Shown here: positions 1 through 29,301 of the stretch, one piece after another
Layout of the letters: each line of letters begins with the position of its first letter
Numbering within the stretch: the first letter of the stretch is position 1
NCBI GenBank assembly: GCA_964538855.1
Contig: CAZIEY010000002.1
Location: forward strand, 219,007 to 253,462
Source of the DNA: an uncultured Candidatus Saccharibacteria bacterium
GTDB lineage: Bacteria > Patescibacteriota > Minisyncoccia > Phycocordibacterales > JAACPR01
Direction of reading: 5' to 3'
Length of the DNA: 34,456 nt
Notes under the pieces: model-generated
Told to the model about the DNA's origin: nothing
Databases searched by the model: none
What the model saw: the letters and a program-made list of their open reading frames with translations, nothing else
Translations under genes and position numbers: made by a program

Positions 1-15
1 ATAAACTAATCAATA

Positions 16-1134
16 ATGATTAACTCTTCTTTTTCAATACTCATCGTTTCAAATCCATTTGGATATGGACCGACTGGTCAAGCTATAAATCTCATAAAAG
101 GTCTTCAAAATAAATCTAAAGACGAGGATTTTAAATTTAACATCTTCTTTGCGGGATCTGGTTTATGTTTGGATATAATTAAAGATGTTGATGGTATAAA
201 TATTATTGAAGTTGATGAACGGGATGAACAATCATTATTCGATACAATCGAAACAATTCCAAATTTAAAACTTTGTATTGGCGTTCAAAATAGATTTATA
301 CCCATCGCAAGTAAAAAAGCTGGTATTAGATGTTATTTCATAGACGGACTAGCCTGGTTATGGGATCCATATCCTGCTCATTTTTTAATTGCCGATAGAA
401 TCTTGTGGACCGACTTCCCCACCCTCAATACTTCGAAAATAGAGAATGAAAAAGTTACCATTATAGGAGAACTCGCGTCTAAAGTAATTTGGAAACCAAG
501 AACCAAGGATGAATTTATTCTGTTATGTTTAGGTGGCCAAGAAAATCCCTTAAGATCTGGATTGCAAGAAAATTATCTAAAACTCACACAAATTGTAATC
601 AATCGTGTAGCACTAAAAACTAACATCAATATAATAGTCACTCTAGGACAAAGAGCTCGTCAATTCATAGAGCAACTACCAGAGGGTAGCTCATTGGTAA
701 AGTTTCTAAGTGTAAGCCATAAAGATAATCTTGAATTATTTTCTTATTGTAAAAAGTTTATTAGTGTAGGAGGTCAAAGCAGCACATTTGAATCTTTAAA
801 CTCTAATATACCTACAATATTCTACCTTCCATCAAACTTAAGCCAAATTCAACTAATCAAAAAATTTAATCTTACAGAAATAAATTGGGATGATTTTGTA
901 CGTATACCACACACCTTCTACAGCCTATCCGAAAAAGAAGCTATAGACACTCTCGAAGGATATTCTCATGAAATATTAAGTAGTGAGGATACAATATCGA
1001 AAATTGTCGATAATCTTGCAGTACAAATACAAAATCAATCTTATTCTAAAATACAAAACAAATACGATAGCATCAAAAAGGGTGGACATAACGACGTATA
1101 CGATTTTATTAAAAAAGATATCTTTAATGTATAA
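16..1134 (+). CDS. GT-B fold glycosyltransferase-like protein (GT1/MurG-like), specificity unknown
   Basis: The 372-aa ORF fills the interval. The N-terminus (SNPFGYGPTGQAINLIKGL) resembles the GT1 G-x-G-D/H-x-x-P loop. The C-terminal ISVGGQSSTFESLNSNIPTIF resembles the GT28/GT1 nucleotide-sugar binding segment. The assignment is by motif only. Confidence 0.45.
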   Translation: MINSSFSILIVSNPFGYGPTGQAINLIKGLQNKSKDEDFKFNIFFAGSGLCLDIIKDVDGINIIEVDERDEQSLFDTIETIPNLKLCIGVQNRFIPIASKKAGIRCYFIDGLAWLWDPYPAHFLIADRILWTDFPTLNTSKIENEKVTIIGELASKVIWKPRTKDEFILLCLGGQENPLRSGLQENYLKLTQIVINRVALKTNINIIVTLGQRARQFIEQLPEGSSLVKFLSVSHKDNLELFSYCKKFISVGGQSSTFESLNSNIPTIFYLPSNLSQIQLIKKFNLTEINWDDFVRIPHTFYSLSEKEAIDTLEGYSHEILSSEDTISKIVDNLAVQIQNQSYSKIQNKYDSIKKGGHNDVYDFIKKDIFNV

Positions 1135-1142
1135 TGTAAAAT

Positions 1143-1973
1143 ATGTCTAAAATATTAGTGACGGGCGGCAAGGGTTTTATTGGATCTCATTTAGTCGATA
1201 GGTTGGTCGAAAATCATGATGTGATAGTAATAGATAATGAATTATCTGGTCACAACGTAAATCCTAAAGCCACTTATCATAAAGTTGATATACGTAAAAA
1301 AGAAGATATTTCAAAATTTTTTAATGGTATCGATTATGTATTTCACATGGCAGCTATACCTCGCACAGTGTGGTGTATAGACGATCCAATCTTGTGTTAT
1401 GAAACAAATATTATGGGATCGTTAAATGTATTAGAATCAGCACGACAACACAAAATAAAGCGTGTAGTACTAACATCAAGTAACATTGTGTACGCAGCCG
1501 ATACACCCTATAAAACTAGTAAGATTGGGATGGAACAAATTGCTCAGGTATACTCGAGTTTGTATAACCTTTCGACTGTCTGTCTTAGAAATTCTAATGT
1601 ATACGGCGCACGCCAGAGAGAAGATGGAATCGGACCAAATTGTTTTGCATCAATCAAAAAATCAATTAGAGAAAATGGCTATATACAAATTACTGGTGAC
1701 GGAGAACAAACGAGAGACTTTACCCATGTATCAGATATAGTAGAAGCACACATACTTGCTATGAATCATACAATTCAAGGTAATATTGATTTGTGTACTG
1801 GTAGAAATGTAACACTTAATTATGTCGCATCTCTTTTTAATGCACCAATTAAATATATTCCCGAAAGAACTGGTGACATTAAACACATCGTTCAAAATAG
1901 TACAATAACGGAAAACATATTGAATTGGAAAGCCAAAGTTAAGTTAGAGGATGGTATCAAAGATGTACTTTAA
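1143..1973 (+). CDS. NAD-dependent sugar epimerase/dehydratase (extended SDR family)
   Basis: Rossmann motif VTGGKGFIGSHLV at the N-terminus. TSS...YKTSK fits the Ser / YxxxK catalytic pattern. The gene starts 9 nt after the previous ORF. Confidence 0.85.
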   Translation: MSKILVTGGKGFIGSHLVDRLVENHDVIVIDNELSGHNVNPKATYHKVDIRKKEDISKFFNGIDYVFHMAAIPRTVWCIDDPILCYETNIMGSLNVLESARQHKIKRVVLTSSNIVYAADTPYKTSKIGMEQIAQVYSSLYNLSTVCLRNSNVYGARQREDGIGPNCFASIKKSIRENGYIQITGDGEQTRDFTHVSDIVEAHILAMNHTIQGNIDLCTGRNVTLNYVASLFNAPIKYIPERTGDIKHIVQNSTITENILNWKAKVKLEDGIKDVL

Positions 1974-2965
1974 AACTGCCGCAAATACTCTTTTTCATCA
2001 ACATTAGCAACCATATCGTCAGAGACTCTAATAATTGACTCTGTTGTTTTTTCACAGATATCTATTAACTTTAAGTGATTGATAAAACATGTATTCTTAC
2101 GACTCTTACTCATCTTTTGACCATCAAATGCTTGCAGTGTTGGACAAAAAAGCATTTTAGGTTCTTTAAATTCTTTAAAATACGTCTTCATAAATGTCTT
2201 TCTTACATTGTAATCACCCTCACTGTAATGATCTCCACCACTCATAGTCACTTCTGTTTTAAATATCTTTAACCGAGCTGTTAACATTGCTTTGTGATAC
2301 CACCAATAATCAAAATACTTAAATGCAGAAATAACCTTATGGTTACATTTGTGGCATTCCCAGGATATTTTATTTTTTATTACAATAGTATCTCCGTGTG
2401 CACTTCTACATTTAGGGCAAATAACACCGGCATACTTAATCGGCGTCTGCAATACATCATGTCCGCTGTACTTTTTAAATATTTTTGATTGTTTTACTGG
2501 ATTTTTTATAGTTTCTAATAATAATCTTTTAAAATGCGTTTTCTCCTTGAGAGATGAATTTCTCACTAAATTAATGGTAACGAACGGAAAATCTTTTATC
2601 ACAGATTTTTTAAAACACCCCTCAATGATTGGTTGCCAATGATCTGCTATATAAGTACAGCAACTACAGGTTGATTTTGTAAATTGTAAAGATGTGTTTT
2701 TAGGATAAATATTAAAGGGATACTTTCTAATATCAGGTCCATCCAATTCATCTTGTTCGTAATCGTTGATTGATAAAGTGAATCTAAGTTTGGGAGTTTT
2801 ACCGAGTCTTTTTAGCTCCTTACATAATAAATATGGGTATACAACGATAGATAATAAATTACCGCCATGAAACCCATAAGGTCTAATACCGAAATGAACT
2901 CTTTCGTTTCCTTTTAGTTCTTGGGCAAGTTTTTTTAAACCAGATAAATAAAGATAGGGTTTCAT
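1970..2965 (-). CDS. Class I aminoacyl-tRNA-synthetase-like ligase (class I LysRS-like catalytic core, no anticodon-binding domain)
   Basis: GIRPYGFHGGN is a HIGH-type signature (aa 26-36). GGDH is at aa 243-246 and GQKMSKSRKN (KMSKS signature) at aa 282-291. CPKC...CHKC forms a putative Zn ribbon at aa 183-207. At 331 aa the protein is too short to include a tRNA anticodon-binding domain. Confidence 0.6.
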   Translation of the reverse strand: MKPYLYLSGLKKLAQELKGNERVHFGIRPYGFHGGNLLSIVVYPYLLCKELKRLGKTPKLRFTLSINDYEQDELDGPDIRKYPFNIYPKNTSLQFTKSTCSCCTYIADHWQPIIEGCFKKSVIKDFPFVTINLVRNSSLKEKTHFKRLLLETIKNPVKQSKIFKKYSGHDVLQTPIKYAGVICPKCRSAHGDTIVIKNKISWECHKCNHKVISAFKYFDYWWYHKAMLTARLKIFKTEVTMSGGDHYSEGDYNVRKTFMKTYFKEFKEPKMLFCPTLQAFDGQKMSKSRKNTCFINHLKLIDICEKTTESIIRVSDDMVANVDEKEYLRQF

Positions 2966-2969
2966 AATA

Positions 2970-3923
2970 CTATTTTATAAGTTTAGAAAAATATACATAT
3001 TTACGATACATAAAAGACTTAATAATTCTCTTAGTTGAATTTGGGTCTTCTACTAAATCACAGAAATAGGTTGCGCAATCAGAAAGTGTTGTGAATGTAA
3101 TCCATTCAAACAAATGTGTATCTTTTTGAATTTTATTAACAACAACACTGTTATACCCTTCCAAAAAAGCGTCAAATAACATCATATCGGGTTCATCAGC
3201 ACCATCAGGAAATGACCATTCAACTACCGCAAGTGCCAAATCTTTTATAGAAGGACCTACACACGCCCAATCAAAATCAATAAGACCGACTACATTATCT
3301 TGAGTATCAAAAAATACGTTGCCAGGACGATAATCATTATGAATGATTGATATCTGATCCTTGTGTTCTGTACCAAACTTCAACGCTTTCTCGACCTGTA
3401 AAAGGAATTCTTGTCCACCTTCGAAATTTTGTTTGAAAAATGATTCATGAGATAAGACTCTCTTCAATTCTTTGAGAATGTCTCGCTCACGTGGTACATC
3501 AGTCACAAAATCTTTTAGAGCTTCGGTCATTAGACCTAAATTACATCCAGCATTATATGCCTGTATGCGTGTAGGCAAATGATCTTTATCCACTTGAATG
3601 TGTGCACCAAATAAAAAGTCAAAAACCACGCAAACTGCACCATCAATTAAAGAATATGAATCATGATTTGTGTTTAAAATAACTTTCGGAATAGATATTT
3701 TTTTAGAATCTAAATGTTGTAATAATTTATACTCAAAAACAATGTCTTGTATCGGCAACCTTTTACTGACACGCACAATACTTTTATGTGTTTCCCCTAC
3801 AACAAATACAAAATTATCTGCGGATTCACGCAACAAAATAATTGGGGTCTTTTCCAATAAATTATAATTCTTTAATACATTTTCTATTTTTGATGTCTCT
3901 ATCATGATATTAATTTTAACCAC
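2970..3923 (-). CDS. APH/choline-kinase-fold phosphotransferase
   Basis: IIHNDYRPGNVFF (HxDxxxxN catalytic loop) and LIDFDWA (DFD Mg-binding motif). An alternative start at 3905 (MIETSK) would give an ATGA start/stop overlap with the upstream GT4 gene. Confidence 0.8.
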   Translation of the reverse strand: MVKINIMIETSKIENVLKNYNLLEKTPIILLRESADNFVFVVGETHKSIVRVSKRLPIQDIVFEYKLLQHLDSKKISIPKVILNTNHDSYSLIDGAVCVVFDFLFGAHIQVDKDHLPTRIQAYNAGCNLGLMTEALKDFVTDVPRERDILKELKRVLSHESFFKQNFEGGQEFLLQVEKALKFGTEHKDQISIIHNDYRPGNVFFDTQDNVVGLIDFDWACVGPSIKDLALAVVEWSFPDGADEPDMMLFDAFLEGYNSVVVNKIQKDTHLFEWITFTTLSDCATYFCDLVEDPNSTKRIIKSFMYRKYVYFSKLIK

Positions 3924-5089
3924 AAATCTTTAGTGAGGACAGACCAAGGTTCAAATTCTTTAGCAGAATATTTGGATAGAGTGTCTGTGTACAAATTTAT
4001 ATACTGAGGAACTAACACGTCCCAATCAAAAAGCTCTGCGTGTTTATACCCACCGTGAATAAGTTTCTGTTTCAAATCCTTATTATTAAGCACACGCTTC
4101 ATCACCTCAGCCAACTCATTAACATCACCACAATTGAACAATATCCCACTATAACCATCAATAACATACTCTGGTATCCCTCCGACATTACTTGCAATAA
4201 CAAGGCATCCCGCAGCCTGTGCTTCGATATTTACCAAACCACCGCCCTCTGAAATAGAGGGTACTACTGTAAATTCAGCACCCTTGAGAAGAGCGATTCC
4301 TTCTGACAAAGTTATTGTACCTACAAAACTGACACGATGTTCAAGTCCAAGCTTCTGTACTAATTGTAGCAAATTACCCTTCTCTTCTCCATCTCCCGCA
4401 ATAACTAAATGTAACTTTGGGAAGATATCTTTTATTAAATTAAAAGATTTAATTAGTACATCAATGCCTTTCGAGGGGTCTAATCGTCTAAAAGCAAAGA
4501 TATAGCTTTCAGAAAAGTTTTTAGGTGAAATCTTTTTAATTTCAGATACGTTTATACCAGCATACAATGTTCCAATATTACCTACCTCTGGAAGTAATAA
4601 CTGTAAATGGTTAGATAGAAAATTTGAAACTGAATTAATACAATCTGCTTGTTTTATAGAATCGGGAACAAATTCTACACCCTGGTTCCAAATTAATCCT
4701 GGGTTTGGATCTACAGGATCAGGAATATCCCCTCCAGCAATTGTCATAATTACAGGTACACCCCATTTTCGAGCTAACATCAGGCCAATGAGTGGTAATG
4801 GGCGTCTAACACCCACTACATGTATAACATCTGAGTGTAGATCCAATTCTATTTTTTTTATAGTTTCAATAAGATCACTGAATTCGGTTTCCGTTTTTGC
4901 ACTTGGTACTCTATACACAGAAACACCTTCAATAACCTCAAATGGGGTTAATGTGGAGGGCCACTGTTTAGTGATTATAGAGACTTTGAATCCCAACTTA
5001 ATATAGCGCCTAGACAATTCAGTCACCATTGTTTCTATACCGCCAACATGCGGTGTATATAACGAAGTAATAAAAAGTATTTTTTTCAT
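3902..5089 (-). CDS. GT4-family glycosyltransferase
   Basis: The N-terminus TSLYTPHVGGIETMV and the C-terminal SEGGGLVNIEAQAAGCLVIASNVGGIPEYV (E-x7-E motif) are typical of GT4/GT-B retaining transferases. Confidence 0.85.
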   Translation of the reverse strand: MKKILFITSLYTPHVGGIETMVTELSRRYIKLGFKVSIITKQWPSTLTPFEVIEGVSVYRVPSAKTETEFSDLIETIKKIELDLHSDVIHVVGVRRPLPLIGLMLARKWGVPVIMTIAGGDIPDPVDPNPGLIWNQGVEFVPDSIKQADCINSVSNFLSNHLQLLLPEVGNIGTLYAGINVSEIKKISPKNFSESYIFAFRRLDPSKGIDVLIKSFNLIKDIFPKLHLVIAGDGEEKGNLLQLVQKLGLEHRVSFVGTITLSEGIALLKGAEFTVVPSISEGGGLVNIEAQAAGCLVIASNVGGIPEYVIDGYSGILFNCGDVNELAEVMKRVLNNKDLKQKLIHGGYKHAELFDWDVLVPQYINLYTDTLSKYSAKEFEPWSVLTKDLWLKLIS

Positions 5090-5799
5090 GACTTCTTTAT
5101 CTTATATAAAATCTGACCATCTAACGGATTATTGGAAATTCTGCCCGTAGCATAATTTACGTATTTCTTTTCAACAATGACCAAATTCGAATCTCTGATA
5201 ATTGAATCGAGCTCAAAAGGATTAAATATGTGCACCATAGTTTCTAATTTAGATTCTTCATGTTTAATACTCAAAGGGAAATCTCCGTTTGTGTCTTTTT
5301 TGATAAACACATCCTTTAAAAAGTTTTTAAATACGTTTTTTAAGCCATACTGAGATACATTATATCGATTGTTAACATCGATAAATGCATACCCATCATT
5401 ATCTAATAGCTCAGAAATATGAGACATCACAGACACGCGTTTTGCGTGTGTAGTAACATGTCCCAACACATTCCACAAACATAAGATTAAATCAAATTTA
5501 CCGTCAATAAATTTTTTACCTGAAATATCCGCAATTATAGTTTTAAAGTTATTATTACTATCTAATTGTTCAAGCATATAAGGGCTATTATCAACGAGTA
5601 CAACTTCCCTAATATTCATCTTTGTAGCGATATTACGCGTACGTGATCCAGTACCGGCCCCCAAATCTAATATATTTTTTGGTTTGACTTTAGTTTGTAA
5701 TATAAAAGTATTAATAGATTCAATATATTGTTGTCTTGTCTTAGAATATGAATCGTATTGTTCAGAAAAGCGATCGTAAAAGATATTTGATGAGAGCAT
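5086..5799 (-). CDS. Class I SAM-dependent methyltransferase
   Basis: ILDLGAGTGSRT (motif I) followed by VLVDNSPYM (acidic motif II). There is a 4-nt overlap with the downstream GT4 gene. Confidence 0.8.
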   Translation of the reverse strand: MLSSNIFYDRFSEQYDSYSKTRQQYIESINTFILQTKVKPKNILDLGAGTGSRTRNIATKMNIREVVLVDNSPYMLEQLDSNNNFKTIIADISGKKFIDGKFDLILCLWNVLGHVTTHAKRVSVMSHISELLDNDGYAFIDVNNRYNVSQYGLKNVFKNFLKDVFIKKDTNGDFPLSIKHEESKLETMVHIFNPFELDSIIRDSNLVIVEKKYVNYATGRISNNPLDGQILYKIKKS

Positions 5800-5802
5800 A
5801 TT

Positions 5803-6903
5803 TTATTGTGTTAAAAATTCTCTAATACAATCTGATACATATTTAATTTCCTCTTCAGTTAAATCATTGAACATTGGTAACGCAAGTAAACGGTCAGACG
5901 CATCTTCCGTAACAGGAAATCGATCTTTGCAGAATGAATACATGGGAAATTGAGTTATTGATGGAAAATAGTTTTTACTAACCTCAACACCCTTTTGTTT
6001 TAAAAAATCATGGACAGAATCTCTCGTTATTTTATCTTTAAACAAAACAAAATAGATAAACCAACTTCTTTCGAATTCTGACATTTGTTGGGGCAGTTTA
6101 ATATCTTTGATATCAGACAAATACTTTTTATATAAATCAGATGATTTATTTCTACTACTCAAAATAGCATCAACTCTCTTGAGTTGTTCACGCCCAAAAG
6201 CAGCTTGAATTTCAGTCATTCTAAAATTAAAGCCAAGTGTAACTTTTTTTAACCAATTTTCTCCAGATGCTCTACCCTGATCTCTCATTGATCTGCAACG
6301 TGTTGCCAAATCAACATCATCAGTCACAATCATACCCCCCTCACCAGCTGTAGTTATCTGCTTATTTTCATGAAATCCATATACACTTAAATCACCTAGT
6401 TGAGAGACAGGAAATCTCGCAGAAGGAGTACCAATAGCTTCGCAAGAGTCTTCGATGATTTTTAGTCCATATCGGTCTTTAATTTCTTTAATCTTTTCAT
6501 AATTAACAGGTAAACCCAAAATGTGCACTAACATAATTCCCTTTGTTTTGGGTCCTATTTTTGACTCAATTAAAGACGGGTCGATATTTAAAGTGTTTGG
6601 GTCAATATCAACAAAAACAGGAGTTACGTTTTCAAATAATAATGCATTTGAAGATGCGATATAACTAAATGGCGTGGTAATTACTTCATCTCCTTTGCCC
6701 CAACCCAAAAGACGAACAGCTAAATGGAGTCCGCTAGTTCCACTATTAACTGATATTGCATACTTTTTATTAACATATTGTGCAAATTCATTTTCAAATT
6801 TTTCTACCTCAGAACCACGACTCAATTTCTTAGACTGCAAAACTCTTTGGATTGCATCTATTTCTGTTTGTGTAATATCTGCTTTATAGAGAGGTATCTT
6901 CAT
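5803..6903 (-). CDS. DegT/DnrJ/EryC1/StrS-family PLP-dependent sugar aminotransferase
   Basis: NSGTSGLHLA and SVYGFHENKQITTAGEGGMIVT (PLP-lysine context SxxxxK...GEGG). The length of 366 aa is typical for the family. Confidence 0.9.
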   Translation of the reverse strand: MKIPLYKADITQTEIDAIQRVLQSKKLSRGSEVEKFENEFAQYVNKKYAISVNSGTSGLHLAVRLLGWGKGDEVITTPFSYIASSNALLFENVTPVFVDIDPNTLNIDPSLIESKIGPKTKGIMLVHILGLPVNYEKIKEIKDRYGLKIIEDSCEAIGTPSARFPVSQLGDLSVYGFHENKQITTAGEGGMIVTDDVDLATRCRSMRDQGRASGENWLKKVTLGFNFRMTEIQAAFGREQLKRVDAILSSRNKSSDLYKKYLSDIKDIKLPQQMSEFERSWFIYFVLFKDKITRDSVHDFLKQKGVEVSKNYFPSITQFPMYSFCKDRFPVTEDASDRLLALPMFNDLTEEEIKYVSDCIREFLTQ

Positions 6904-6908
6904 GAATT

Positions 6909-7436
6909 TTACGAAAACATATCATTAATTATTTTACACGCTTCCTCCAATGTATCAACTCTTAAATGAGAGTGGTAATTCAACCAATAATCTTTACTGT
7001 GAGCATTACCAAATATAATAATCGGTTTATTATTTTGATGTGCATAAAAAACCTCCATTGCAGTGCCAATCATACTTGCTTCGGAATATGTATCATTCAC
7101 CAAAAGAACATCACAATAATAGACGTCGTTCAAATCACGGATGACTGCGGCACGCGGATCAGTGAAAACTTCTTTTTCTTCTCTACCCCTTAACGCGTGT
7201 AGCACATTGAATTTGGATGATAAAAGTTCAACTGCCAGATTTCTCCACCCCAAAGAGTCGGCTCTAGACAACCCCCTAATCGGCCCACTTAAAAATACTG
7301 TTTTTGTTTTATTCACAATAATTTGATTTAACCATAAAAACCGTGTCTGAGCAAGAATATAACGCAATTTTCTAACGAATATCCTGCGATACTTTTCTAG
7401 TCCTGCATAGCTTAGCAATTCCCTGTTCTCTGTCAT
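6909..7436 (-). CDS. Nucleoside 2-deoxyribosyltransferase-like (NDT/Rcl/BlsM-MilB superfamily) protein
   Basis: VFLSGPIRG (N-terminal nucleotide-binding strand) and SMIGTAMEVFYAHQNNKPIIIF (GT-x-x-E-x-G/x-x-A...KP catalytic-Glu motif). The start is uncertain: the ATG at 7436 leaves only 10 nt before the divergent recombinase gene, and an internal GTG (VNKTKTVFLSGP) is possible. Confidence 0.55.
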   Translation of the reverse strand: MTENRELLSYAGLEKYRRIFVRKLRYILAQTRFLWLNQIIVNKTKTVFLSGPIRGLSRADSLGWRNLAVELLSSKFNVLHALRGREEKEVFTDPRAAVIRDLNDVYYCDVLLVNDTYSEASMIGTAMEVFYAHQNNKPIIIFGNAHSKDYWLNYHSHLRVDTLEEACKIINDMFS

Positions 7437-7446
7437 TAATTAGTAC

Positions 7447-8730
7447 ATGACTAATACGGAACAAGACCAAATGAAATATTGCTTATATGCTCGTAAATCA
7501 ACTGAAGCAGAAGAGAAACAAGCCCTTTCAATTGATTCTCAAATCAAGGAAATGAAGCAGATTGCCGAGCGTGAGAACTTAACTATAGTTGAGATACGTA
7601 AGGAATCACACTCTGCAAAAGAGTCTGGGCAAAGACCGGTATTTGAGGAAATTGTAAAAGATATCGATACTGGTATATTCAATGGAATTATTACATGGGC
7701 ACCTGATAGACTTTCCAGAAATGCAGGTGATCTTGGAAAGCTTGTAGATAGAATGGATCAAAGAAAGCTAATTCAGATCAAAACTTTTGGTCAAACATTC
7801 ACCAATTCACCAAGTGATAAATTTTTGTTGATGATTTTATGTTCTCAAGCAAAACTAGAGAATGACAACAAAAGTATCAACGTAAAGCGTGGTATGAGAA
7901 CTCGTTGTGAAATGGGTTTATGGCCTGCACAACCTCCTACAGGTTATAGAAAAGTAAATGACAGAACTGCAAGGTGCGAAGTTGAGATTGATCCCGAACG
8001 AGCTGATACTATACGGCAGATATTCGAGAAAATTAGTTATGAAAAATGGAGTGTATCAAAGGTGCATGCGTGGCTACGATATGATCTAAATTTCAAGACA
8101 CACAGAGGATTTCACTTGAGTATCGGTAATGTATTCAAAATAATCAATAATACTTTTTATTACGGTCGCTTTGAATTTCCTCAAGGTGCTGGTATTTGGT
8201 ATGAGGGAAAACATAAACCAATTATCTCTAAGGAACTGTTTGACGAAACGCGAAACTCTATTAAGTCGCAAATGATAAAATCACGAGGTAAGGAATTTGC
8301 TTTTACTCGAATTATGAAATGTGGGGTGTGTGGATCAGGTATTACCGCTGACGAAAAGTTCAAGAAATTAGTGAGTGGCGGAGTTAATAGACATGTCTAT
8401 TATCGATGCACAAAAACGAAAGACAGGAATTGTAAAAATCCTGCACTGAATGAAACCGAACTTATCGAATCACTAATCGATATGGTCGATACTTTGGACA
8501 TAAACAAGGTAAAGCTCACTGCGAAACTTGATTTGGAAATCCAAAAGTTTAAGAAATTACAAGCAATGTTTATAGGAAAAAAGAAAACAGTAAAAATAGA
8601 ACCTATCGATCTCAGGGATTACACGAAGTTCGTATTAAGAGAAGGCGTGTCTTTAGAACAAAGATCTATTTTAGAATGTATTAGCAGTGAACTTATATTA
8701 AAGAATAGAGAAATTAAATTACTTAATTAA
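7447..8730 (+). CDS. Large serine recombinase (resolvase catalytic domain + recombinase domain + zinc ribbon)
   Basis: YCLYARKSTEAEEKQALSIDSQ (catalytic Ser region) and WAPDRLSRN. The recombinase-domain segment includes PTGYRK. The Zn ribbon reads CGVCGSGITADE...YYRCTK...C. An alternative start is at 7471 (MKYCLYARKS). Confidence 0.85.
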   Translation: MTNTEQDQMKYCLYARKSTEAEEKQALSIDSQIKEMKQIAERENLTIVEIRKESHSAKESGQRPVFEEIVKDIDTGIFNGIITWAPDRLSRNAGDLGKLVDRMDQRKLIQIKTFGQTFTNSPSDKFLLMILCSQAKLENDNKSINVKRGMRTRCEMGLWPAQPPTGYRKVNDRTARCEVEIDPERADTIRQIFEKISYEKWSVSKVHAWLRYDLNFKTHRGFHLSIGNVFKIINNTFYYGRFEFPQGAGIWYEGKHKPIISKELFDETRNSIKSQMIKSRGKEFAFTRIMKCGVCGSGITADEKFKKLVSGGVNRHVYYRCTKTKDRNCKNPALNETELIESLIDMVDTLDINKVKLTAKLDLEIQKFKKLQAMFIGKKKTVKIEPIDLRDYTKFVLREGVSLEQRSILECISSELILKNREIKLLN

Positions 8731-10498
8731 ATTCTGATTCATTTGAGATTATATGTTCAATAAGGTCAAATATTTTTTCAAAATCCTTAAAATCATCTTT
8801 TGTTCCATTTTGACAAATCCAATCACATAAATTACCCTTCTCATCTTTATTTATTTCCCATTTTTCAGGAATTGTAACATCCACCCCTCTTTCTATTTTT
8901 GTTATCGCACATGTAATATCAATATATGCTTTTTTATTTTCTATGGCTTTTTTCAAGAACGTTTTAGTAAATAAATTTTCAATTCCTTTTGTAACAACAT
9001 TATCTCTTACTGTTGGAATAACTCTTTTAAAGACTTTTCCAGTATTGCTATCTTGTTTATTAGTATCACAATCATATAGTAAGATTACTTTTTGGGGAAT
9101 TATTTCCGATAATCTTGTTTTATTATTGAAATTTCCCCAAATTTTATCCAAATTCCCATACCCAACAACATCACGAATTTCTATTTTTTCTAAAATTTCC
9201 GACTTACTTAGTAATTCACTTGCTTTTGTTATATATCTAATATCATAATCACCCTCAACAAATAGAATTGTTTTTGTTGATTTTGCAATTTGTTCTGTAA
9301 TTTCTTTCTCAAACTTTTCAGTTTCTTTCAAAACCTTGTAAGCATTTTCAAACTCAGAAAACCTTTCTGTTGTTATTAGTTCTCCCTTCGGCATATTTCT
9401 TACTTCGAATCCATTTTCCCCGAAAATCTTTCTCATTCCTAATAGAAACAATGGCGAGTGAGTAGTAATAATAAATTGAATCTTAGGAAATAACTGTACC
9501 AGTTCTGGTAATACTGAATTTTGTAAATCTGTATGCAAATGGACATCTATTTCGTCTATTGCGACTATTCCCTGAATTTGTTCTGTAGTTTTTGGTGGAT
9601 TATCACCATGACGAATAATATTTATAAAAAGATTTAAAAGTATAGATTCGCCCAAAGATAAGTTATCAATACTTGGAAGTAATTCTTGAATCCACTGACC
9701 TTTATCGTTTACTTCACCAATTGACACCCTATATCTTCCTCTTGGGCCAACTCCGAATCTGATGTTGTCTCTCTTTTTAATTTTCCTTAAAATGTTGTTT
9801 ATATTTTGCCACGTAATCCGATCTGTAATATTTTTAGGGTTATTTGTAAAATCCAAAACCAAATCCATTAAAAATGATTTGCTTTCTTGTGTTGATGAAA
9901 TTATTTCGATTTCTTTATTTAATCTTCCCGCAAACTTTTTTTTATCTTGAAATCTCGCGTAATCAACAAATGGTTCATTTTTCCAAAATGGCTCTTCATA
10001 CCTGTATGCCGGTTGATAGAAATGAACATTTTGAATCCACTCATCTTCTAAGTATTCTTTTCTCTCATCATCTATGTTTGTTATTTGTTTTTGGTTATCA
10101 TTTTTATCATTCGGAGATAATACAAAACCTTGAATAAGATTTGCAAAATCTTCCTTTTTTACTTTGCCAATTTTATCAAAATATTCTAAATCTTTATTTT
10201 TATGGTCAATAAACTTTAAAAGAGAAACCCCCTTATCTTTTCCTGTTTGTAAATTTATACCACCTGAAACTTTATAATATTTATACCCGAGTCCCTCCTT
10301 AACCTGAACATCATCAAAGAGTTTTCCTCCAATTTCATACAACCCATCGATAATCTGCGAATGTAAAATTGTCTTTCCGGATCCATTTTCTCCAACAAAT
10401 ATAATGGGTTTTGGATCACCATTTTCCTTAAAAGGTAATTCGATGGCGAGTTCTTCTATTGGTCCAATATTTTTGATTGCAATATTTTTTAAATACAT
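8723..10498 (-). CDS. OLD-family-like ABC-type ATPase with C-terminal TOPRIM-like domain
   Basis: Walker A is VGENGSGKT, the signature-like segment is LSLGES, Walker B is IVAIDEIDVHLH, and the H-loop is ITTHSP. The C-terminal ILFVEGDYDIRY (Glu motif) and LLYDCDTN (DxD) fit TOPRIM/DUF4435. The ORF track starts at a TTG at 10516, but the ATG at 10498 (MYLKNIAIKNIGPI) matches the usual N-terminus of this family. Confidence 0.7.
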   Translation of the reverse strand: MYLKNIAIKNIGPIEELAIELPFKENGDPKPIIFVGENGSGKTILHSQIIDGLYEIGGKLFDDVQVKEGLGYKYYKVSGGINLQTGKDKGVSLLKFIDHKNKDLEYFDKIGKVKKEDFANLIQGFVLSPNDKNDNQKQITNIDDERKEYLEDEWIQNVHFYQPAYRYEEPFWKNEPFVDYARFQDKKKFAGRLNKEIEIISSTQESKSFLMDLVLDFTNNPKNITDRITWQNINNILRKIKKRDNIRFGVGPRGRYRVSIGEVNDKGQWIQELLPSIDNLSLGESILLNLFINIIRHGDNPPKTTEQIQGIVAIDEIDVHLHTDLQNSVLPELVQLFPKIQFIITTHSPLFLLGMRKIFGENGFEVRNMPKGELITTERFSEFENAYKVLKETEKFEKEITEQIAKSTKTILFVEGDYDIRYITKASELLSKSEILEKIEIRDVVGYGNLDKIWGNFNNKTRLSEIIPQKVILLYDCDTNKQDSNTGKVFKRVIPTVRDNVVTKGIENLFTKTFLKKAIENKKAYIDITCAITKIERGVDVTIPEKWEINKDEKGNLCDWICQNGTKDDFKDFEKIFDLIEHIISNESEFN

Positions 10499-10613
10499 AA
10501 AATGAGCATACCACAACTAGCCAAAGTTTAATATCGCAAAAAAGGCAAACCAATCTGTTGCTATTCAATTCGTCAAACTAACCCTTCTCGAGTGCTCGAA
10601 CTAGCTCTCTAAA

Positions 10614-10688
10614 TGGTGACCCTACAGGGAATCGAACCCTGATTTAAGCCTTGAGAAGGCTCTGTCCTAGCCGTTAGACGATAGGGCC
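10614..10688 (-). tRNA. tRNA-Glu (anticodon CUC), CCA encoded
   Basis: The reverse complement reads GGCCCTA-TC-GTCT-AACGGCTA-GGAC-A-GAGCC-TTCTCAA-GGCTT-AAAT-CAGGG-TTCGATT-CCCTG-TAGGGTC-A-CCA. This is a full 75-nt cloverleaf with the GTTCGATTC T-loop and anticodon CTC. Confidence 0.9.
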
Positions 10689-17525: not shown

Positions 17526-18986
17526 CTATTTCTTTGGCTTCATCAACGGGAACAATACAGTCTCACGAATGGGTTTGCCCGCAAGCACAGAGAAAAGACG
17601 GTCACCAACCGGAGCTGAACCGAATGCAGGTGGCATACCATGTTCCAACATTTCAACGAATTCAAAGTCGGGCATCATTGCTTCATCATCACCTCGATCA
17701 ATTAATTTTTGCTGTTCTTCGAATCGTGCGCGTTGATCGATAGGATCATTCAATTCAGAGAATGAGTTGCTAAACTCACTACCTGCCACAATCAATTGCA
17801 AACGCTCGGTCACCTCAGGATTATCCTCGCAAGATTTTGCAAGTGGTGAAACCAATTTTGGATGTTTAGTGAGCCACACAGGACCCGCAATAGATTTTCG
17901 ACAATATTTCCAAAGCGTATCAGTCAATCGTTCACGAGTTTCCCCATCATACGACACACCGAGTTCGGTTAATTTTGCTTTCATTTCGTCTTCAGCTGCT
18001 TTCAATACATCGACCCCAGTTTTTTCCAACACATACGGAACATATTCAATCACAGGCCAAGTACCCGACAAATCAACTTTCATACCTTTTACATCAAATG
18101 ATAGAGTGCCGAAAGTTTCTTGAACAACATGTTGCACCAATTTTTCGATAAAGCCGCGACCCTCGACGTAATCCATGTACGCAGCGTAAAATTCCATGTT
18201 CGTAAATTCTTGGAGATGTTCAGGACTTGAACCTTCATTACGATACACACGGCCGATTTCAAACACTCTTTCAAAACCCGCAGCGAGAGCGCGTTTCTGC
18301 CACAATTCACCAACCGAAATTCGCAAATAGACCGGAATATCAAAGTCGTTGTGATGAGTTACGAACGGTCGAGCTTCTGCCCCACCAGTTGTAGTTTCAA
18401 GTGTTGGTGTCGTAATTTCCAAAAATCCTTGGTCGAGCATGTATTGTCGAGCTGATCGCCAGAATTTTGAATGCTTTTCGATTAGGTCGTGCAATTCCGG
18501 ATTCATCAAAATGTCCAAGTATCGCTTTCGATATCGTTCGTCATCATCAACAAGGCCGGCCCATTTGTCAGGTAGTGGCGAAATTGCTTTCGTTAAAATA
18601 TTCCACGATTTTATGAGGAGACTTTTCGCACCGCGCTGAGTCGTGAAAAGTGGACCAGTTGCTTCGATAAAATCACCCATATCGATAGTGTCAACAAAAA
18701 GCGCAAAGTCCGCTTCTGGCATTTCATCTTTTTTAAGTACGAGTTGCGTTTTGCCAGTTCCATCAAAAATTTCCACGAACAAAATTGCTCCTTGTCCACG
18801 AATAATCATCACTCGACCCGCGAGCGTCACATTTTTTTGAGAAGCAGAAAGTTCGTCGAATTTAGCAAGCGCATCCGCAACAGAAATATCACGCTTTGTG
18901 CGCGCAGCAAACGGGTTTTGTCCCGCCTTTTTTAACTTTTCTAACTTTTCAAGCCGAACTTTTTGTAAATCCTCTAATGCTGTCAT
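17526..18986 (-). CDS. lysS: Lysine--tRNA ligase (class II)
   Basis: An N-terminal OB-fold region is followed by the class II motifs FEIGRVYRNEGSSPEHLQEFTNMEFYAAY and a C-terminal GMPPAFG. Confidence 0.95.
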   Translation of the reverse strand: MTALEDLQKVRLEKLEKLKKAGQNPFAARTKRDISVADALAKFDELSASQKNVTLAGRVMIIRGQGAILFVEIFDGTGKTQLVLKKDEMPEADFALFVDTIDMGDFIEATGPLFTTQRGAKSLLIKSWNILTKAISPLPDKWAGLVDDDERYRKRYLDILMNPELHDLIEKHSKFWRSARQYMLDQGFLEITTPTLETTTGGAEARPFVTHHNDFDIPVYLRISVGELWQKRALAAGFERVFEIGRVYRNEGSSPEHLQEFTNMEFYAAYMDYVEGRGFIEKLVQHVVQETFGTLSFDVKGMKVDLSGTWPVIEYVPYVLEKTGVDVLKAAEDEMKAKLTELGVSYDGETRERLTDTLWKYCRKSIAGPVWLTKHPKLVSPLAKSCEDNPEVTERLQLIVAGSEFSNSFSELNDPIDQRARFEEQQKLIDRGDDEAMMPDFEFVEMLEHGMPPAFGSAPVGDRLFSVLAGKPIRETVLFPLMKPKK

Positions 18987-29245: not shown

Positions 29246-29301
29246 AGATGCGGCAATTGTAATACTTTTTAGGTGTTTGCACAATTTGCTATACTTCCTA
29301 T

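What the first reader, a model, noticed from the sequence alone, without database searches (positions are those of the whole stretch)
1970..2965. Truncated class I LysRS-like paralogue without an anticodon-binding domain, embedded in a sugar operon
The protein keeps both class I signatures (FHGGN as the HIGH-type element, and KMSKS exactly) and a GGDH segment in the arrangement seen in class I LysRS. It also has a CPKC...CHKC zinc-ribbon insertion. The genome already encodes a complete class II LysRS (lysS at 17526-18986). At 331 aa this protein cannot carry the tRNA anticodon-binding domain, so it probably activates an amino acid and transfers it to a non-tRNA acceptor. The established precedent is MshC, a CysRS paralogue that ligates cysteine to an amino sugar. 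GluQRS is another truncated paralogue.
Basis: partly seen in the sequence, partly recalled or inferred. Interest (0 to 1): 0.7.

Follow-up and report, generated by a model that had tools for sequence, protein, structure and literature searches.

The report
Stand-alone LysRS-I-like ligase in nucleoside-sugar operon
This gene encodes only the catalytic half of a class I lysyl-tRNA synthetase, and in ultra-small (CPR) bacteria it sits in a conserved operon whose partner enzymes resemble those that build sugar-nucleoside antibiotics, so it probably attaches an amino acid to a small molecule rather than to tRNA.

Summary
Window 1970-2965 (minus strand) encodes a 331-aa protein that is a true homologue of the class I LysRS catalytic domain. 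Pfam PF01921 scores 37.6 bits (cut-off 27), hhalign against genuine LysRS-I gives E 4.6e-24, and Foldseek's best hit is 1IRX at E 8.6e-14. The protein ends about 45 residues after KMSKS, so it has no anticodon-binding domain. A bona fide class II LysRS lies at 17526-18986.

HxGN, GxDH and MSK are invariant in the aligned family members. Several LysRS-I-invariant pocket residues are replaced, so lysine cannot be assumed. The Cys4 "zinc ribbon" is inherited from LysRS-I and is not a new insertion.

The family is small (127 hits among 1.84 billion representatives), mostly from CPR/Patescibacteria, and uncharacterised. It is tightly linked to a MilB-like N-glycosidase, a GT-B distantly related to cytosylglucuronate synthase, and a DegT aminotransferase. 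A methyltransferase, a GT4 and an APH kinase (sometimes fused to it) are usually present, and a ribosomal-protection-type ABC-F is usually adjacent.

Best reading: an ATP-dependent amino-acid ligase that acylates a hexosyl-(amino)nucleoside or amino sugar. I rate it a new variant of a known kind. Function is inferred, not shown.

The parts
1970..2965 (-). Truncated class I LysRS-like protein (331 aa). It has the Rossmann catalytic domain with HxGN (33-36), a Cys4 zinc-ribbon insertion domain (183-207), GGDH (243-246) and KMSKS (284-288), and no anticodon-binding domain.
2970..3923 (-). APH-family small-molecule kinase lying 4 nt upstream of the ligase gene. In some genomes it is fused to the ligase (P0136).
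   Evidence: Pfam PF01636 at 75 bits; fusion P0136; present in 20 of 33 loci
3902..5089 (-). GT4 glycosyltransferase. Its best NCBIfam hits are BshA and MshA, both below their cut-offs.
   Evidence: present in 22 of 33 loci
5086..5799 (-). SAM-dependent methyltransferase
   Evidence: present in 23 of 33 loci
5803..6903 (-). DegT/DnrJ/EryC1-type PLP sugar aminotransferase
   Evidence: PF01041 at 357.8 bits; present in 28 of 33 loci
6909..7316 (-). Small protein of about 135 aa with the nucleoside 2-deoxyribosyltransferase / N-glycosidase fold (MilB-like). The likely start is GTG at 7316; the mechanical ORF runs on to ATG at 7436.
   Evidence: present in 26 of 33 loci
16..1134 (+). GT-B glycosyltransferase distantly related to cytosylglucuronate (CGA) synthase. 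It is convergent with the ligase gene here and directly downstream on the same strand in most other loci.
   Evidence: TIGR04467 is the best or only NCBIfam hit in 5 of 5 orthologues; GT1 donor motif; present in 30 of 33 loci
1143..1973 (+). NAD-dependent epimerase/dehydratase (SDR). It is a possible source of the keto-sugar for the aminotransferase. It is an accessory member, found in 7 of 33 loci.
   Evidence: PF01370 at 170 bits
7447..8730 (+). Large serine recombinase flanking the low-GC island that carries the operon (context)
   Evidence: GC values
17526..18986 (-). Housekeeping class II lysyl-tRNA synthetase (context). It shows that the paralogue is not needed for Lys-tRNA synthesis.

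Best explanation
The gene encodes a stand-alone catalytic domain that evolved from class I lysyl-tRNA synthetase and has lost the tRNA anticodon-binding domain. It keeps the ATP-handling signatures. The most likely mechanism is that it activates an amino acid with ATP to an aminoacyl-adenylate and passes the aminoacyl group to a small-molecule acceptor made by its operon partners, rather than to tRNA.

The proposed pathway, all of it inferred, has these steps:
- The MilB-like N-glycosidase frees a nucleobase from a nucleotide.
- The CGA-synthase-like GT-B joins that base to an NDP-hexose, giving a hexopyranosyl nucleoside.
- The SDR and the DegT aminotransferase install an amino group.
- The LysRS-I-like ligase acylates that amine (or a sugar hydroxyl). 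This is the same chemistry an aaRS performs on the terminal adenosine of tRNA, applied here to a free nucleoside.
- The methyltransferase, GT4 and APH kinase tailor or mask the product.

The product would be an aminoacyl-(amino)hexosyl nucleoside of the blasticidin / gougerotin / mildiomycin / puromycin kind. The adjacent ribosomal-protection-type ABC-F would fit a ribosome-directed product.

What is shown: the homology, the fold, the domain loss, the motif conservation and the gene linkage. What is inferred: ATP-dependent activation, the acceptor, the amino acid and the product. My layered confidence is about 0.97 for the homology and domain loss, about 0.85 for a role in the operon's pathway, about 0.6 for ATP-dependent transfer to a small non-tRNA acceptor, and about 0.4 for the acceptor being a nucleoside.
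For: Homology and truncation:
- Pfam PF01921 scores above its cut-off.
- hhalign against genuine LysRS-I gives E 4.6e-24 and covers only template residues 27-294 of about 540.
- Foldseek's best hit is 1IRX at E 8.6e-14. GluRS and CysRS follow at about 1e-6.

Retained adenylation machinery:
- H33, G35, N36, G243, M285 and K287 are invariant, and D245 and H246 are at least 96% conserved, in 52 sequences that share only 38-67% identity with the query.
- A stand-alone sister subfamily outside the operon has lost exactly these motifs. This shows they are maintained by selection in the operon family.

Not a tRNA synthetase:
- No NCBIfam LysRS model matches.
- A class II LysRS is present in the same window.
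- LysRS-I-invariant pocket residues are replaced by different residues that are invariant within the family.

Pathway linkage across 33 loci:
- The GT-B is present in 30, DegT in 28, the NDT-like protein in 26, an ABC-F in 24, the MTase in 23, GT4 in 22 and APH in 20.
- An APH-ligase fusion protein exists.

Partner identities:
- The small protein folds like NDT-family enzymes and the MilB CMP N-glycosidase (TM 0.72-0.75, rmsd about 3 A).
- All five GT-B orthologues tested hit the CGA-synthase model TIGR04467, and essentially nothing else, at E 1e-6 to 1e-11.
- The ABC-F scores best on NF000355 (ribosomal protection-like) and passes its cut-off in two of three loci.
- The ABC-F lies 117 bp beyond the window's left edge in this same genome.

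Soluble pathway: none of the operon proteins is a membrane protein.
Against: - No biochemical data exist for any member of the family.
- The CGA-synthase match is far below the equivalog cut-off (28-44 bits against 300). The N-glycosidase assignment rests on fold, so a nucleobase as substrate is unproven.
- No radical-SAM decarboxylase (BlsE/MilG type) is present in the operon, and no transporter gene was seen in the operon or in the other loci examined apart from an MFS gene about 4 kb upstream in L005.
- The SDR that would make the keto-sugar is found in only 7 of 33 loci.
- Reduced operon variants lack GT4, the MTase and APH.
- Some distant family members are stand-alone genes.
- In this genome the ABC-F has core-genome GC (46.8%) while the operon is at 31-37%, so the adjacency might partly reflect the insertion site.
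- ABC-F proteins also have housekeeping roles.
- The amino-acid specificity is unknown.
Confidence: 0.55

Rival explanations
1. The enzyme is an ATP-dependent amino-acid ligase, but its acceptor has no nucleobase. It would be an amino sugar or glycoside. One version is a mycothiol/bacillithiol-like small metabolite, made by a GT4 attaching a sugar to an aglycone, amination, and then aminoacylation. Another version is an NDP-amino-sugar destined for a glycan that carries an N-aminoacyl group.
For: - The GT4's best NCBIfam hits are BshA (116 bits) and MshA (105 bits).
- DegT, SDR and MTase are typical tailoring enzymes for NDP-sugars.
- BshC appears among the structural neighbours of the ligase model (4wbd, E 7.8e-6).
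- The cluster has lower GC than its flanks, as glycan islands often do.
- MshC is an established precedent (general knowledge).
Against: - The GT4 scores are far below the BshA and MshA cut-offs and are generic for GT4 enzymes.
- GT4 is missing from reduced operon variants, whereas the MilB-like N-glycosidase and the CGA-synthase-like GT-B are the most constant partners.
- There is no flippase, polymerase, priming transferase or any other membrane protein in the operon.
- No deacetylase or nucleotidyltransferase was found in the window's operon.
Confidence: 0.2
2. The enzyme is an aminoacyl-tRNA-dependent transferase and not an adenylating enzyme. It would take an aminoacyl group from charged tRNA and move it onto the pathway intermediate. 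This is what is reported for BlsK, the [3Fe-4S] leucyl transferase of blasticidin S biosynthesis.
For: - BlsK acts in a cytosyl-nucleoside pathway that also contains MilB/BlsM-, CGA-synthase- and DegT-type enzymes, and it uses leucyl-tRNA and an Fe-S cluster (review PMC12710036).
- MilH is annotated in the same way (PMC11784345).
- The family has four invariant Cys plus a fifth Cys (C48) conserved in more than 90% of members, which could bind a metal cluster.
- My unverified recollection is that BlsK was originally described as resembling lysyl-tRNA synthetase.
Against: - HxGN, GxDH and the MSK lysine, which bind ATP and the adenylate, are invariant or nearly so. They would not be needed for a pure transferase, and a sister subfamily has lost them.
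- The four Cys match the Cys4 site of genuine LysRS-I position for position.
- With no anticodon-binding domain there is no obvious way to grip a tRNA.
- No Streptomyces or BlsK-named protein was seen among the top 120 hits of the named-database searches or among the 20 tail hits whose sources I looked up. The exhaustive search carries no names, so the rest of its 127 hits were not checked.
- BlsK's fold could not be checked, because the primary paper is not held.
Confidence: 0.1
3. The enzyme modifies a macromolecule. It could aminoacylate a modified nucleoside in tRNA or rRNA, as GluQRS does on queuosine, or a translation factor, as the class II LysRS paralogue EpmA does on EF-P. The sugar enzymes would build the rest of the modification, and the ABC-F link would reflect a role in translation.
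For: - GluQRS is likewise a class I catalytic domain with no anticodon-binding domain (general knowledge).
- The family is mildly basic (median pI 8.4).
- An ABC-F translation factor is adjacent in 24 of 33 loci.
- Some distant relatives are stand-alone genes, as expected for an enzyme that acts on a universal substrate.
Against: - The operon contains no tRNA-guanine transglycosylase, RNA-binding protein or EF-P gene.
- The cluster is an accessory, low-GC, patchily distributed island and not a core translation trait.
- The constant partners are small-molecule enzymes (N-glycosidase, GT-B, aminotransferase).
- The stand-alone relatives near gcvTHP have lost the catalytic motifs.
Confidence: 0.08
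4. It is a gene fragment, or one half of a split LysRS-I, with no independent function.
For: It covers only the N-terminal ~55% of a LysRS-I. JGI auto-annotates relatives as 'lysyl-tRNA synthetase class I'.
Against: - Family length is conserved at about 332 aa across more than 100 clusters that share only 38-67% identity with the query.
- Family-specific invariant residues and a family-specific insert exist.
- Among the neighbours with Pfam assignments or matches to the query set, none is a gene for the missing C-terminal half, in any locus examined.
- The fold prediction is very confident (pLDDT 96.3).
- A class II LysRS is present.
Confidence: 0.02

Closest known systems
Class I lysyl-tRNA synthetase (LysRS-I, LysK; PDB 1IRX; Pfam PF01921, TIGR00467)
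   Same: The Rossmann catalytic domain is homologous. The HxGN, GxDH and KMSxS motifs and the Cys4 metal site of the insertion domain all align in register.
   Different: The protein lacks about 240 C-terminal residues, which in LysRS-I are the stem-contact and anticodon-binding domains. It shares 16-22% identity with LysRS-I, and no TIGR00467 hit was reported at E <= 1. LysRS-I-invariant residues W, R, K, W, E, Y, S and G are replaced by H224, K225, W221, L232, T240, P275, D251 and R255, most of them invariant in the family (L232 and T240 are the query's residues at less conserved positions). There is an extra QDxLDGPD insert, and the gene lies in a biosynthetic operon.
MshC (cysteine:GlcN-inositol ligase, a CysRS paralogue) and BshC
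   Same: The proposed logic is the same: a class I aaRS-type catalytic domain activates an amino acid with ATP and acylates the amine of a sugar derivative made by neighbouring or pathway enzymes, which include a GT4.
   Different: The evolutionary origin differs (LysRS-I, not CysRS). There is no Pfam or NCBIfam match to CysRS or MshC. Structural similarity to CysRS and BshC is much weaker than to LysRS-I (E about 1e-6 against 1e-13). The operon partners point to a nucleoside and not to an inositol or malate glycoside.
GluQRS (YadB), glutamyl-queuosine tRNA-Asp synthetase
   Same: Both are class I aaRS catalytic domains that have lost the anticodon-binding domain. Both are about 300-330 aa and keep the adenylation motifs.
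   Different: GluQRS descends from GluRS and modifies a tRNA nucleoside. It is a stand-alone housekeeping gene and not part of a sugar or nucleoside operon. GluRS structures match the model only at about 1e-6 with TM 0.37-0.41.
Early steps of cytosyl-hexose peptidyl-nucleoside pathways (mildiomycin MilB/MilC/MilD, blasticidin S BlsM/BlsD/BlsH, and the aminoacylating BlsK/MilH)
   Same: The same set of enzyme types is present: a nucleotide N-glycosidase with the NDT fold, a CGA-synthase-type GT-B, a DegT aminotransferase and an aminoacylating enzyme. An APH kinase and an ABC-F sit alongside, as in the self-resistance modules of some ribosome-targeting nucleoside antibiotics (pathway roles from PMC11784345 and PMC12710036).
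   Different: All the matches are remote: GT-B 28-44 bits against a 300-bit cut-off, and N-glycosidase 21-22% identity. The operon has no radical-SAM decarboxylase, ATP-grasp ligase or aminomutase. The hosts are CPR bacteria and not actinomycetes. The aminoacylating enzyme here keeps its ATP motifs, whereas BlsK is reported to be tRNA-dependent.

Membership tests
Pfam PF01921 tRNA-synt_1f (class I LysRS catalytic domain superfamily) | Score above the Pfam gathering threshold over most of the catalytic-domain model | tested here: met
   37.6 bits against a cut-off of 27, residues 17-296 on model positions 20-294 of 360. hhalign against genuine LysRS-I gives E 4.6e-24. Foldseek hit to 1IRX at E 8.6e-14.
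Functional class I lysyl-tRNA synthetase (TIGR00467 lysS_arch) | C-terminal stem-contact and alpha-helical anticodon-binding domains (full length about 500-540 aa) | tested here: not met
   The protein is 331 aa and ends about 45 residues after KMSKS. The alignment covers only LysRS-I positions 27-294. TM normalised to 1IRX is 0.46, against 0.67 normalised to the query.
Functional class I lysyl-tRNA synthetase (TIGR00467 lysS_arch) | Scores above the equivalog cut-off (147.55 bits) | tested here: not met
   No TIGR00467 hit at E <= 1. Genuine LysRS-I from the same search tail score 120-521 bits.
Functional class I lysyl-tRNA synthetase (TIGR00467 lysS_arch) | Residues invariant in LysRS-I outside the ATP motifs (candidate lysine and tRNA-acceptor pocket) | tested here: not met
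   Eleven LysRS-I-invariant positions carry different residues in this family, most of them family-invariant, and there is an extra insert. Which of these residues contact lysine rests on memory of the LysRS-I literature and was not verified here.
Class I aaRS adenylate-forming catalytic core | HIGH-type and KMSKS-type signatures conserved across the family | tested here: met
   H33, G35, N36, M285 and K287 are invariant in 52 sequences. G243, D245 and H246 are at least 96% conserved.
MshC (TIGR03447) / CysRS lineage | Sequence membership in the CysRS/MshC family (tRNA-synt_1e) | tested here: not met
   No Pfam or NCBIfam hit to CysRS or MshC at E <= 1. CysRS structures match only at E about 2e-6 with TM 0.48.
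MshC-like mechanism (ATP-dependent aminoacylation of a sugar amine) | Amino-acid-dependent ATP-PPi exchange and transfer to an amino-sugar acceptor | not testable with these tools
   This needs enzyme assays. Only indirect support is available: motif conservation and linkage to DegT.
GluQRS / GluRS lineage | Sequence membership in tRNA-synt_1c, with tRNA-Asp queuosine as acceptor | tested here: not met
   No Pfam or NCBIfam GluRS or GluQRS hit. GluRS structures match at E about 1e-6 with TM 0.37-0.41. The acceptor cannot be tested.
BlsK-type tRNA-dependent [3Fe-4S] aminoacyltransferase | Homology to BlsK/MilH, an Fe-S cluster and dependence on aminoacyl-tRNA | not tested
   No BlsK sequence or primary paper was available. 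No actinomycete or BlsK-named protein was seen among the hits whose names or sources I could see. The library searched carries no names.
Cytosylglucuronate (CGA) synthase TIGR04467 (operon partner at 16-1134) | Score above the equivalog cut-off (300 bits) | tested here: not met
   27.8 bits in the window and 35.8-44.5 bits in four orthologues. It is the best hit in all five (sole hit in three; the other hits are at E >= 0.018), which marks them as distant relatives and not orthologues.
MilB/BlsM-type nucleotide N-glycosidase (operon partner at 6909-7316) | NDT-superfamily fold with the catalytic Glu in a G-T-x-x-E motif | tested here: met
   The AF2 model (pLDDT 89.7) matches NDTs and MilB (4jem_A TM 0.75, rmsd 2.9 A, 21% identity). 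G84, T85 and E88 are invariant. Substrate identity (CMP or another nucleotide) was not tested.
Known anti-phage defence systems (PADLOC) | Match of the ligase or its operon partners to a defence-system model | tested here: not met
   No hit for the ligase, GT4, DegT, the NDT-like protein, the GT-B or the SDR. The only other matches are a generic methyltransferase-domain hit and a marginal APH hit (PD-T4-6, E 7e-4, no stretch passing on its own). The neighbouring ATPase at 8723-10516 is PtuA-like.

The most novel reading that the evidence does not exclude
CPR/Patescibacteria, which are thought to have almost no secondary metabolism, carry a mobile low-GC operon that makes an aminoacyl-aminohexosyl nucleoside. 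This would be a mimic of the aminoacylated 3' end of tRNA, in the manner of puromycin, blasticidin or gougerotin. The key step would be carried out by a new class of aaRS paralogue: a LysRS-I catalytic domain re-tooled to aminoacylate a free nucleoside in place of A76. The adjacent ribosomal-protection-type ABC-F, and the APH kinase with a His-phosphatase, would protect the producer.
Probability: 0.25. Interest if true: 0.85.

Novelty: new variant of a known kind. Interest (0 to 1): 0.68.

Why it matters
aaRS paralogues that have left translation (MshC, GluQRS, EpmA, amino-acid:carrier-protein ligases, cyclodipeptide synthases) each opened a new area of biochemistry. To my knowledge, and in the literature I could search, no paralogue derived from class I LysRS has been described.

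This one defines a compact family of about 332 aa, and it is currently auto-annotated as "lysyl-tRNA synthetase class I" or "hypothetical". That label can mislead metabolic reconstructions of CPR genomes.

Its fixed association with MilB-, CGA-synthase- and DegT-like enzymes and an ARE-type ABC-F gives a directly testable hypothesis: ultra-small, host-dependent bacteria make an aminoacylated sugar-nucleoside. If true, that would bear on how they interact with hosts or competitors, and it would add a new enzymatic route to peptidyl nucleosides. Even if the acceptor turns out to be a plain amino sugar, the enzyme would be a new amide- or ester-forming ligase with a small, well-folded scaffold.

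Tried and rejected
- **BlsK as the closest characterised relative.** The primary paper (PNAS 2021) is not held. Secondary sources give the mechanism only, not the fold. No Streptomyces or BlsK-named protein appeared among the hits whose names or sources I could see, and the exhaustive search carries no names. This lead is left as an untested rival.
- **Sequence-only PDB searches.** Searches with the single protein and with the family profile gave nothing significant. The fold search and hhalign were needed instead.
- **Profile search of the 5.8-billion-protein database.** It stayed inside the family and added no named relatives.
- **Remote Ala-rich hit P0227 as a possible BlsK-type protein.** Its context is gcvTHP-X-purL and it has lost the catalytic motifs, so it belongs to a different subfamily. 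Rejected.
- **Archaeal truncated relatives (P0241, P0250).** They lie among ribosomal and housekeeping genes and say nothing about this operon.
- **Riboswitch or T-box that might name the metabolite or amino acid.** None was found in the window or in five related loci.
- **Promoter and terminator scan.** Counts were at or below shuffle expectation, so it was uninformative.
- **Exact look-up of the window's protein.** It is not on record. I worked around this with the neighbouring gene's product.
- **Known defence system.** No match for the operon.
- **Surface-glycan cluster.** Disfavoured because the operon has no membrane proteins.
- **Pseudogene or split LysRS.** Rejected on the conservation evidence.
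Full report
**1. The observation**

The ORF at 1970-2965 is real but lies on the minus strand. It starts with ATG and encodes 331 aa. It starts 4 nt after the stop of the upstream kinase gene, and its stop overlaps the convergent SDR gene.

**2. Is it really a class I LysRS catalytic domain?**

Yes, on four independent lines of evidence.

- Pfam PF01921 (tRNA-synt_1f) scores 37.6 bits against a gathering cut-off of 27. The match spans residues 17-296 on model positions 20-294 of 360.
- A 52-sequence family profile (A1) aligns with a profile of six genuine LysRS-I proteins. Five of the six score 335-521 bits on TIGR00467. The hhalign probability is 99.6% with E 4.6e-24 over 254 columns. HxGN pairs with HIGN, both Cys pairs pair with the LysRS-I Cys pairs, GGDH with GKDH and KMSKS with KMSSS.
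- An AlphaFold2 model is very confident (pLDDT 96.3, pTM 0.92). Its best PDB match is the class I LysRS structure 1IRX (E 8.6e-14, TM 0.67 normalised to the query, 16% identity). GluRS, CysRS, BshC and TyrRS follow seven orders of magnitude behind.
- The alignment stops at LysRS-I position ~294 of ~540. The protein therefore lacks the stem-contact and anticodon-binding domains.

Plain sequence searches of the PDB were not sensitive enough to see any of this.

A genuine class II LysRS is encoded at 17526-18986. NF001756 scores 490 bits against a 468 cut-off, and TIGR00499 scores 434 against 427.6. The paralogue is therefore not needed for translation.

The Cys4 element is not an insertion, because genuine LysRS-I has four invariant Cys at the equivalent positions.

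**3. The family**

A search of 5.8 billion clustered proteins gave 135 hits with the single sequence and 238 with the profile. Nearly all are 315-360 aa. They are either unnamed or auto-named "lysyl-tRNA synthetase class I", and they come from Patescibacteria/CPR metagenome bins.

An exhaustive HMMER pass over 1.84 billion 50%-identity representatives found only 127 proteins at E <= 1e-3, of which 67 were at E <= 1e-30. The tail of that list reaches genuine LysRS-I. This is a small, tight and uncharacterised family.

Species-representative genomes place it in Staskawicz-, Nomura-, Shapiro- and Beckwithbacteria, in Paceibacterota and in "Saccharibacteria"-labelled bins. A few bins carry other labels.

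The following positions are invariant or nearly invariant in the 52 aligned sequences, which share only 38-67% identity with the query:

- G26, I27, R28, P29, H33, G35 and N36 (the HxGN region)
- N67, D68 and E70
- C183, C186, C204 and C207
- W221, H224 and K225
- R231
- G243, D245 and H246
- D251 and R255
- P275
- M285, K287 and N291
- C48, conserved in more than 90% of sequences

Compared with genuine LysRS-I, the ATP and adenylate signatures are retained. Eleven positions that are invariant in LysRS-I carry different residues in this family, most of them family-invariant: S→Y30, DDxD→NDxE, K→W221, W→H224, R→K225, W→L232, E→T240, S→D251, G→R255 and Y→P275. There is also a family-specific insert, QDxLDGPD. 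I read this as a remodelled amino-acid and acceptor pocket, so lysine should not be assumed. Which of those residues contact lysine in LysRS-I is from memory and was not verified here.

A sister subfamily gives a useful internal control. These are stand-alone genes in a gcvTHP-X-purL context (P0207, P0227, P0199). They keep the Cys4 site but have lost HxGN, GxDH and KMSKS. The adenylation motifs are therefore not frozen relics. They are maintained by selection in the operon-linked family.

**4. Genomic context**

In the window the gene is the sixth of a co-directional, tightly packed minus-strand operon:

- an NDT-like small protein (6909-7316; the mechanical ORF is over-extended to 7436)
- a DegT aminotransferase (5803-6903)
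- a SAM methyltransferase (5086-5799)
- a GT4 glycosyltransferase (3902-5089)
- an APH-family kinase (2970-3923)
- the LysRS-I-like gene (1970-2965)

It is met convergently by an SDR epimerase/dehydratase (1143-1973) and a 372-aa GT-B protein (16-1134).

I compared 33 loci that carry the gene: the window, public contigs and 28 species-representative genomes. Within about 10 kb, the partners occur as follows:

| Partner | Loci (of 33) |
|---|---|
| GT-B | 30 |
| DegT | 28 |
| NDT-like protein | 26 |
| ABC-F-type ATPase | 24 |
| Methyltransferase | 23 |
| GT4 | 22 |
| APH kinase | 20 |
| His-phosphatase | 8 |
| SDR | 7 |

Some absences are simply contig ends. The canonical order is NDT-like, DegT, MTase, GT4, APH, ligase, GT-B, all on one strand. 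It is kept across loci whose ligases share only 44-61% identity with the query.

Reduced variants such as L005 and L021-L024 lose GT4, the MTase and APH but keep the triad of NDT-like protein, ligase and GT-B. A 652-aa protein (P0136) fuses the APH kinase to the ligase.

None of the operon proteins is predicted to be membrane-embedded. No riboswitch or T-box is associated with the operon, and it matches no known defence system.

**5. The partners**

- **The small protein.** It is highly conserved (289 homologues, 62-87% identity). Its model (pLDDT 89.7) matches nucleoside 2'-deoxyribosyltransferases and MilB, the CMP N-glycosidase of mildiomycin biosynthesis. MilB gives the best superpositions among the top hits (TM 0.72-0.75, rmsd 2.9-3.4 A, 21-22% identity). 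BcmB and DNPH1 also match. The G-T-x-x-E motif is invariant.
- **The GT-B.** It has no Pfam match. In all five orthologues tested, the best NCBIfam hit (the sole hit in three) is TIGR04467, hydroxymethylcytosylglucuronate/cytosylglucuronate synthase, at 28-44 bits and E 1e-6 to 1e-11. That is far below the 300-bit equivalog cut-off. Its profile finds the GT1 donor-binding motif of YjiC and OleD.
- **The ABC-F.** It scores best on NF000355, "ribosomal protection-like ABC-F", at 384, 438 and 344 bits against a cut-off of 380. This is above its scores on the EttA and Uup models.

In this very genome, the contig L037 is 100% identical to window 1-7763. It shows the ABC-F starting 117 bp beyond the window's left edge, followed by a His-phosphatase. 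One locus also has a cytidine-deaminase-family gene next to the GT-B.

**6. Mechanism proposed**

Shown:

- The protein is a LysRS-I-derived catalytic domain with no anticodon-binding domain.
- Its ATP motifs are conserved.
- It is genetically locked to a soluble set of enzymes that handle nucleotides and sugars.

Inferred:

- It forms an aminoacyl-adenylate and transfers the aminoacyl group to a pathway intermediate.
- The MilB-like, CGA-synthase-like and DegT-like trio matches the opening steps of cytosyl-hexose peptidyl-nucleoside pathways (roles as listed in PMC11784345). I therefore think the acceptor is most likely a hexopyranosyl (amino)nucleoside.
- This is mechanistically economical. 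An aaRS catalytic site already aminoacylates a nucleoside, the terminal adenosine A76 of tRNA. Losing the anticodon domain and remodelling the pocket would let it take a free nucleoside.
- Methylation, a second glycosylation and phosphorylation would be tailoring or masking steps.
- An ARE-type ABC-F, and a kinase paired with a phosphatase, would fit self-protection against a ribosome-directed product. That parallel with nucleoside-antibiotic producers comes from general knowledge and was not tested here.

My layered confidence is:

| Claim | Confidence |
|---|---|
| Homology and domain loss | ~0.97 |
| Functions within the operon's pathway | ~0.85 |
| ATP-dependent transfer to a small non-tRNA acceptor | ~0.6 |
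| The acceptor is a nucleoside | ~0.4 |
| The product is a ribosome-targeting antibiotic | ~0.25 |

**7. Caveats and rivals**

- The CGA-synthase and N-glycosidase assignments are remote.
- The operon has no radical-SAM decarboxylase, and a transporter gene was seen near only one locus (an MFS gene in L005).
- The SDR is usually absent.
- Distant non-CPR family members are stand-alone genes.
- In this genome the operon is 31-37% GC, while the ABC-F and His-phosphatase (47% and 44%) match the core genome at 42.7%. The operon therefore belongs to a ~10.5-kb low-GC island together with a large serine recombinase and a PtuA-like ATPase, and the island ends at tRNA-Glu.
- The operon has lower GC than its flanks in 11 of 11 canonical loci. 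That fits an accessory cluster exchanged horizontally, but it weakens any argument that the ABC-F was co-inherited with it.

The rivals are:

- an amino-sugar or glycoside acceptor of the mycothiol/bacillithiol type, or an NDP-sugar for a glycan (0.2)
- a BlsK-like aminoacyl-tRNA-dependent transferase (0.1). BlsK is a [3Fe-4S], leucyl-tRNA-dependent enzyme according to PMC12710036. I could not obtain its sequence or its primary paper.
- a GluQRS- or EpmA-like modifier of RNA or protein (0.08)
- a gene fragment or split LysRS (0.02)

**8. Comparison with known systems and novelty**

The protein is a member of the PF01921 superfamily. It fails the tests for a functional LysRS-I: it has no anticodon-binding domain, no TIGR00467 hit and an altered pocket. 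It is not a member of the CysRS/MshC or GluRS/GluQRS lineages, which are functional analogues only.

I found no description of a truncated LysRS-I paralogue, or of this operon, in the searchable literature. I rate it a new variant of a known kind: an aaRS paralogue recruited to non-translational aminoacylation, from a lineage not previously known to have produced one, in an unexpected host group and pathway context.

Noticed in passing
window 1-10688: The operon (31-37% GC), a large serine recombinase (7447-8730) and a PtuA-like (Septu-type) AAA ATPase (8723-10516, 29% GC) form a ~10.5-kb low-GC island. It is bounded by tRNA-Glu(CTC) at 10614-10688, and the core genome is 42.7% GC. The operon also has lower GC than its flanks in 11 of 11 other loci.
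   Followed up: partly
L037 7880-10478 (same genome, beyond the window's left edge): A ribosomal-protection-like ABC-F (495 aa), a His_Phos_1 phosphatase and a LOOT RNA motif (RF03000, 77.7 bits, L037 10360-10478) lie immediately left of window position 1.
   Followed up: partly
P0207 / P0227 / P0199; loci L036, L038, L039: A stand-alone sister subfamily of about 300-aa LysRS-I-like proteins sits between the glycine-cleavage genes gcvTHP and purL in non-CPR bacteria (one cluster member is labelled Dehalococcoidia). It keeps the Cys4 site but has lost HxGN, GxDH and KMSKS, so it is probably non-catalytic or has been repurposed.
   Followed up: partly
P0241, P0250; locus L006 9001-10044: Archaeal truncated LysRS-I-like proteins (336-347 aa) with intact HxGN and KMSKS lie among ribosomal-protein and other housekeeping genes. 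They form a different subfamily, possibly a split or auxiliary LysRS.
   Followed up: no
P0136 (652 aa), P0140 (524 aa), P0143 (556 aa): These are fusion proteins. P0136 is an APH kinase joined to the LysRS-I-like domain. P0140 and P0143 carry N-terminal extensions of about 200-240 aa with no Pfam match.
   Followed up: partly
P0245 (240 aa): An ABC ATPase N-terminus is joined to a fragment of the family's conserved 'HWWYHKPMLLARMEIFKIDITLSG' segment. This is probably a frameshift or assembly chimera between neighbouring ABC-F and ligase genes.
   Followed up: no
L004 11138-11527 and 4751-5284: In one locus a 129-aa cytidine-deaminase-family gene (47 bits, below the cdd cut-off) and a Ham1/ITPase-like gene flank the operon. 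Both are nucleotide-handling enzymes, and the deaminase family includes the blasticidin-S deaminases.
   Followed up: no
window 6909-7436: The mechanical 175-aa ORF for the NDT-like protein is over-extended. All orthologues are 132-138 aa, and the alignment supports a GTG start at 7316.
   Followed up: yes
window 22306-23391 and 28235-29284: There are two full-length MreB paralogues, plus MreC and two PBP2-type transpeptidases, alongside a dcw cluster (mraZ, mraW, Mur ligase). That is a substantial cell-shape gene set for a small-genome bacterium.
   Followed up: no
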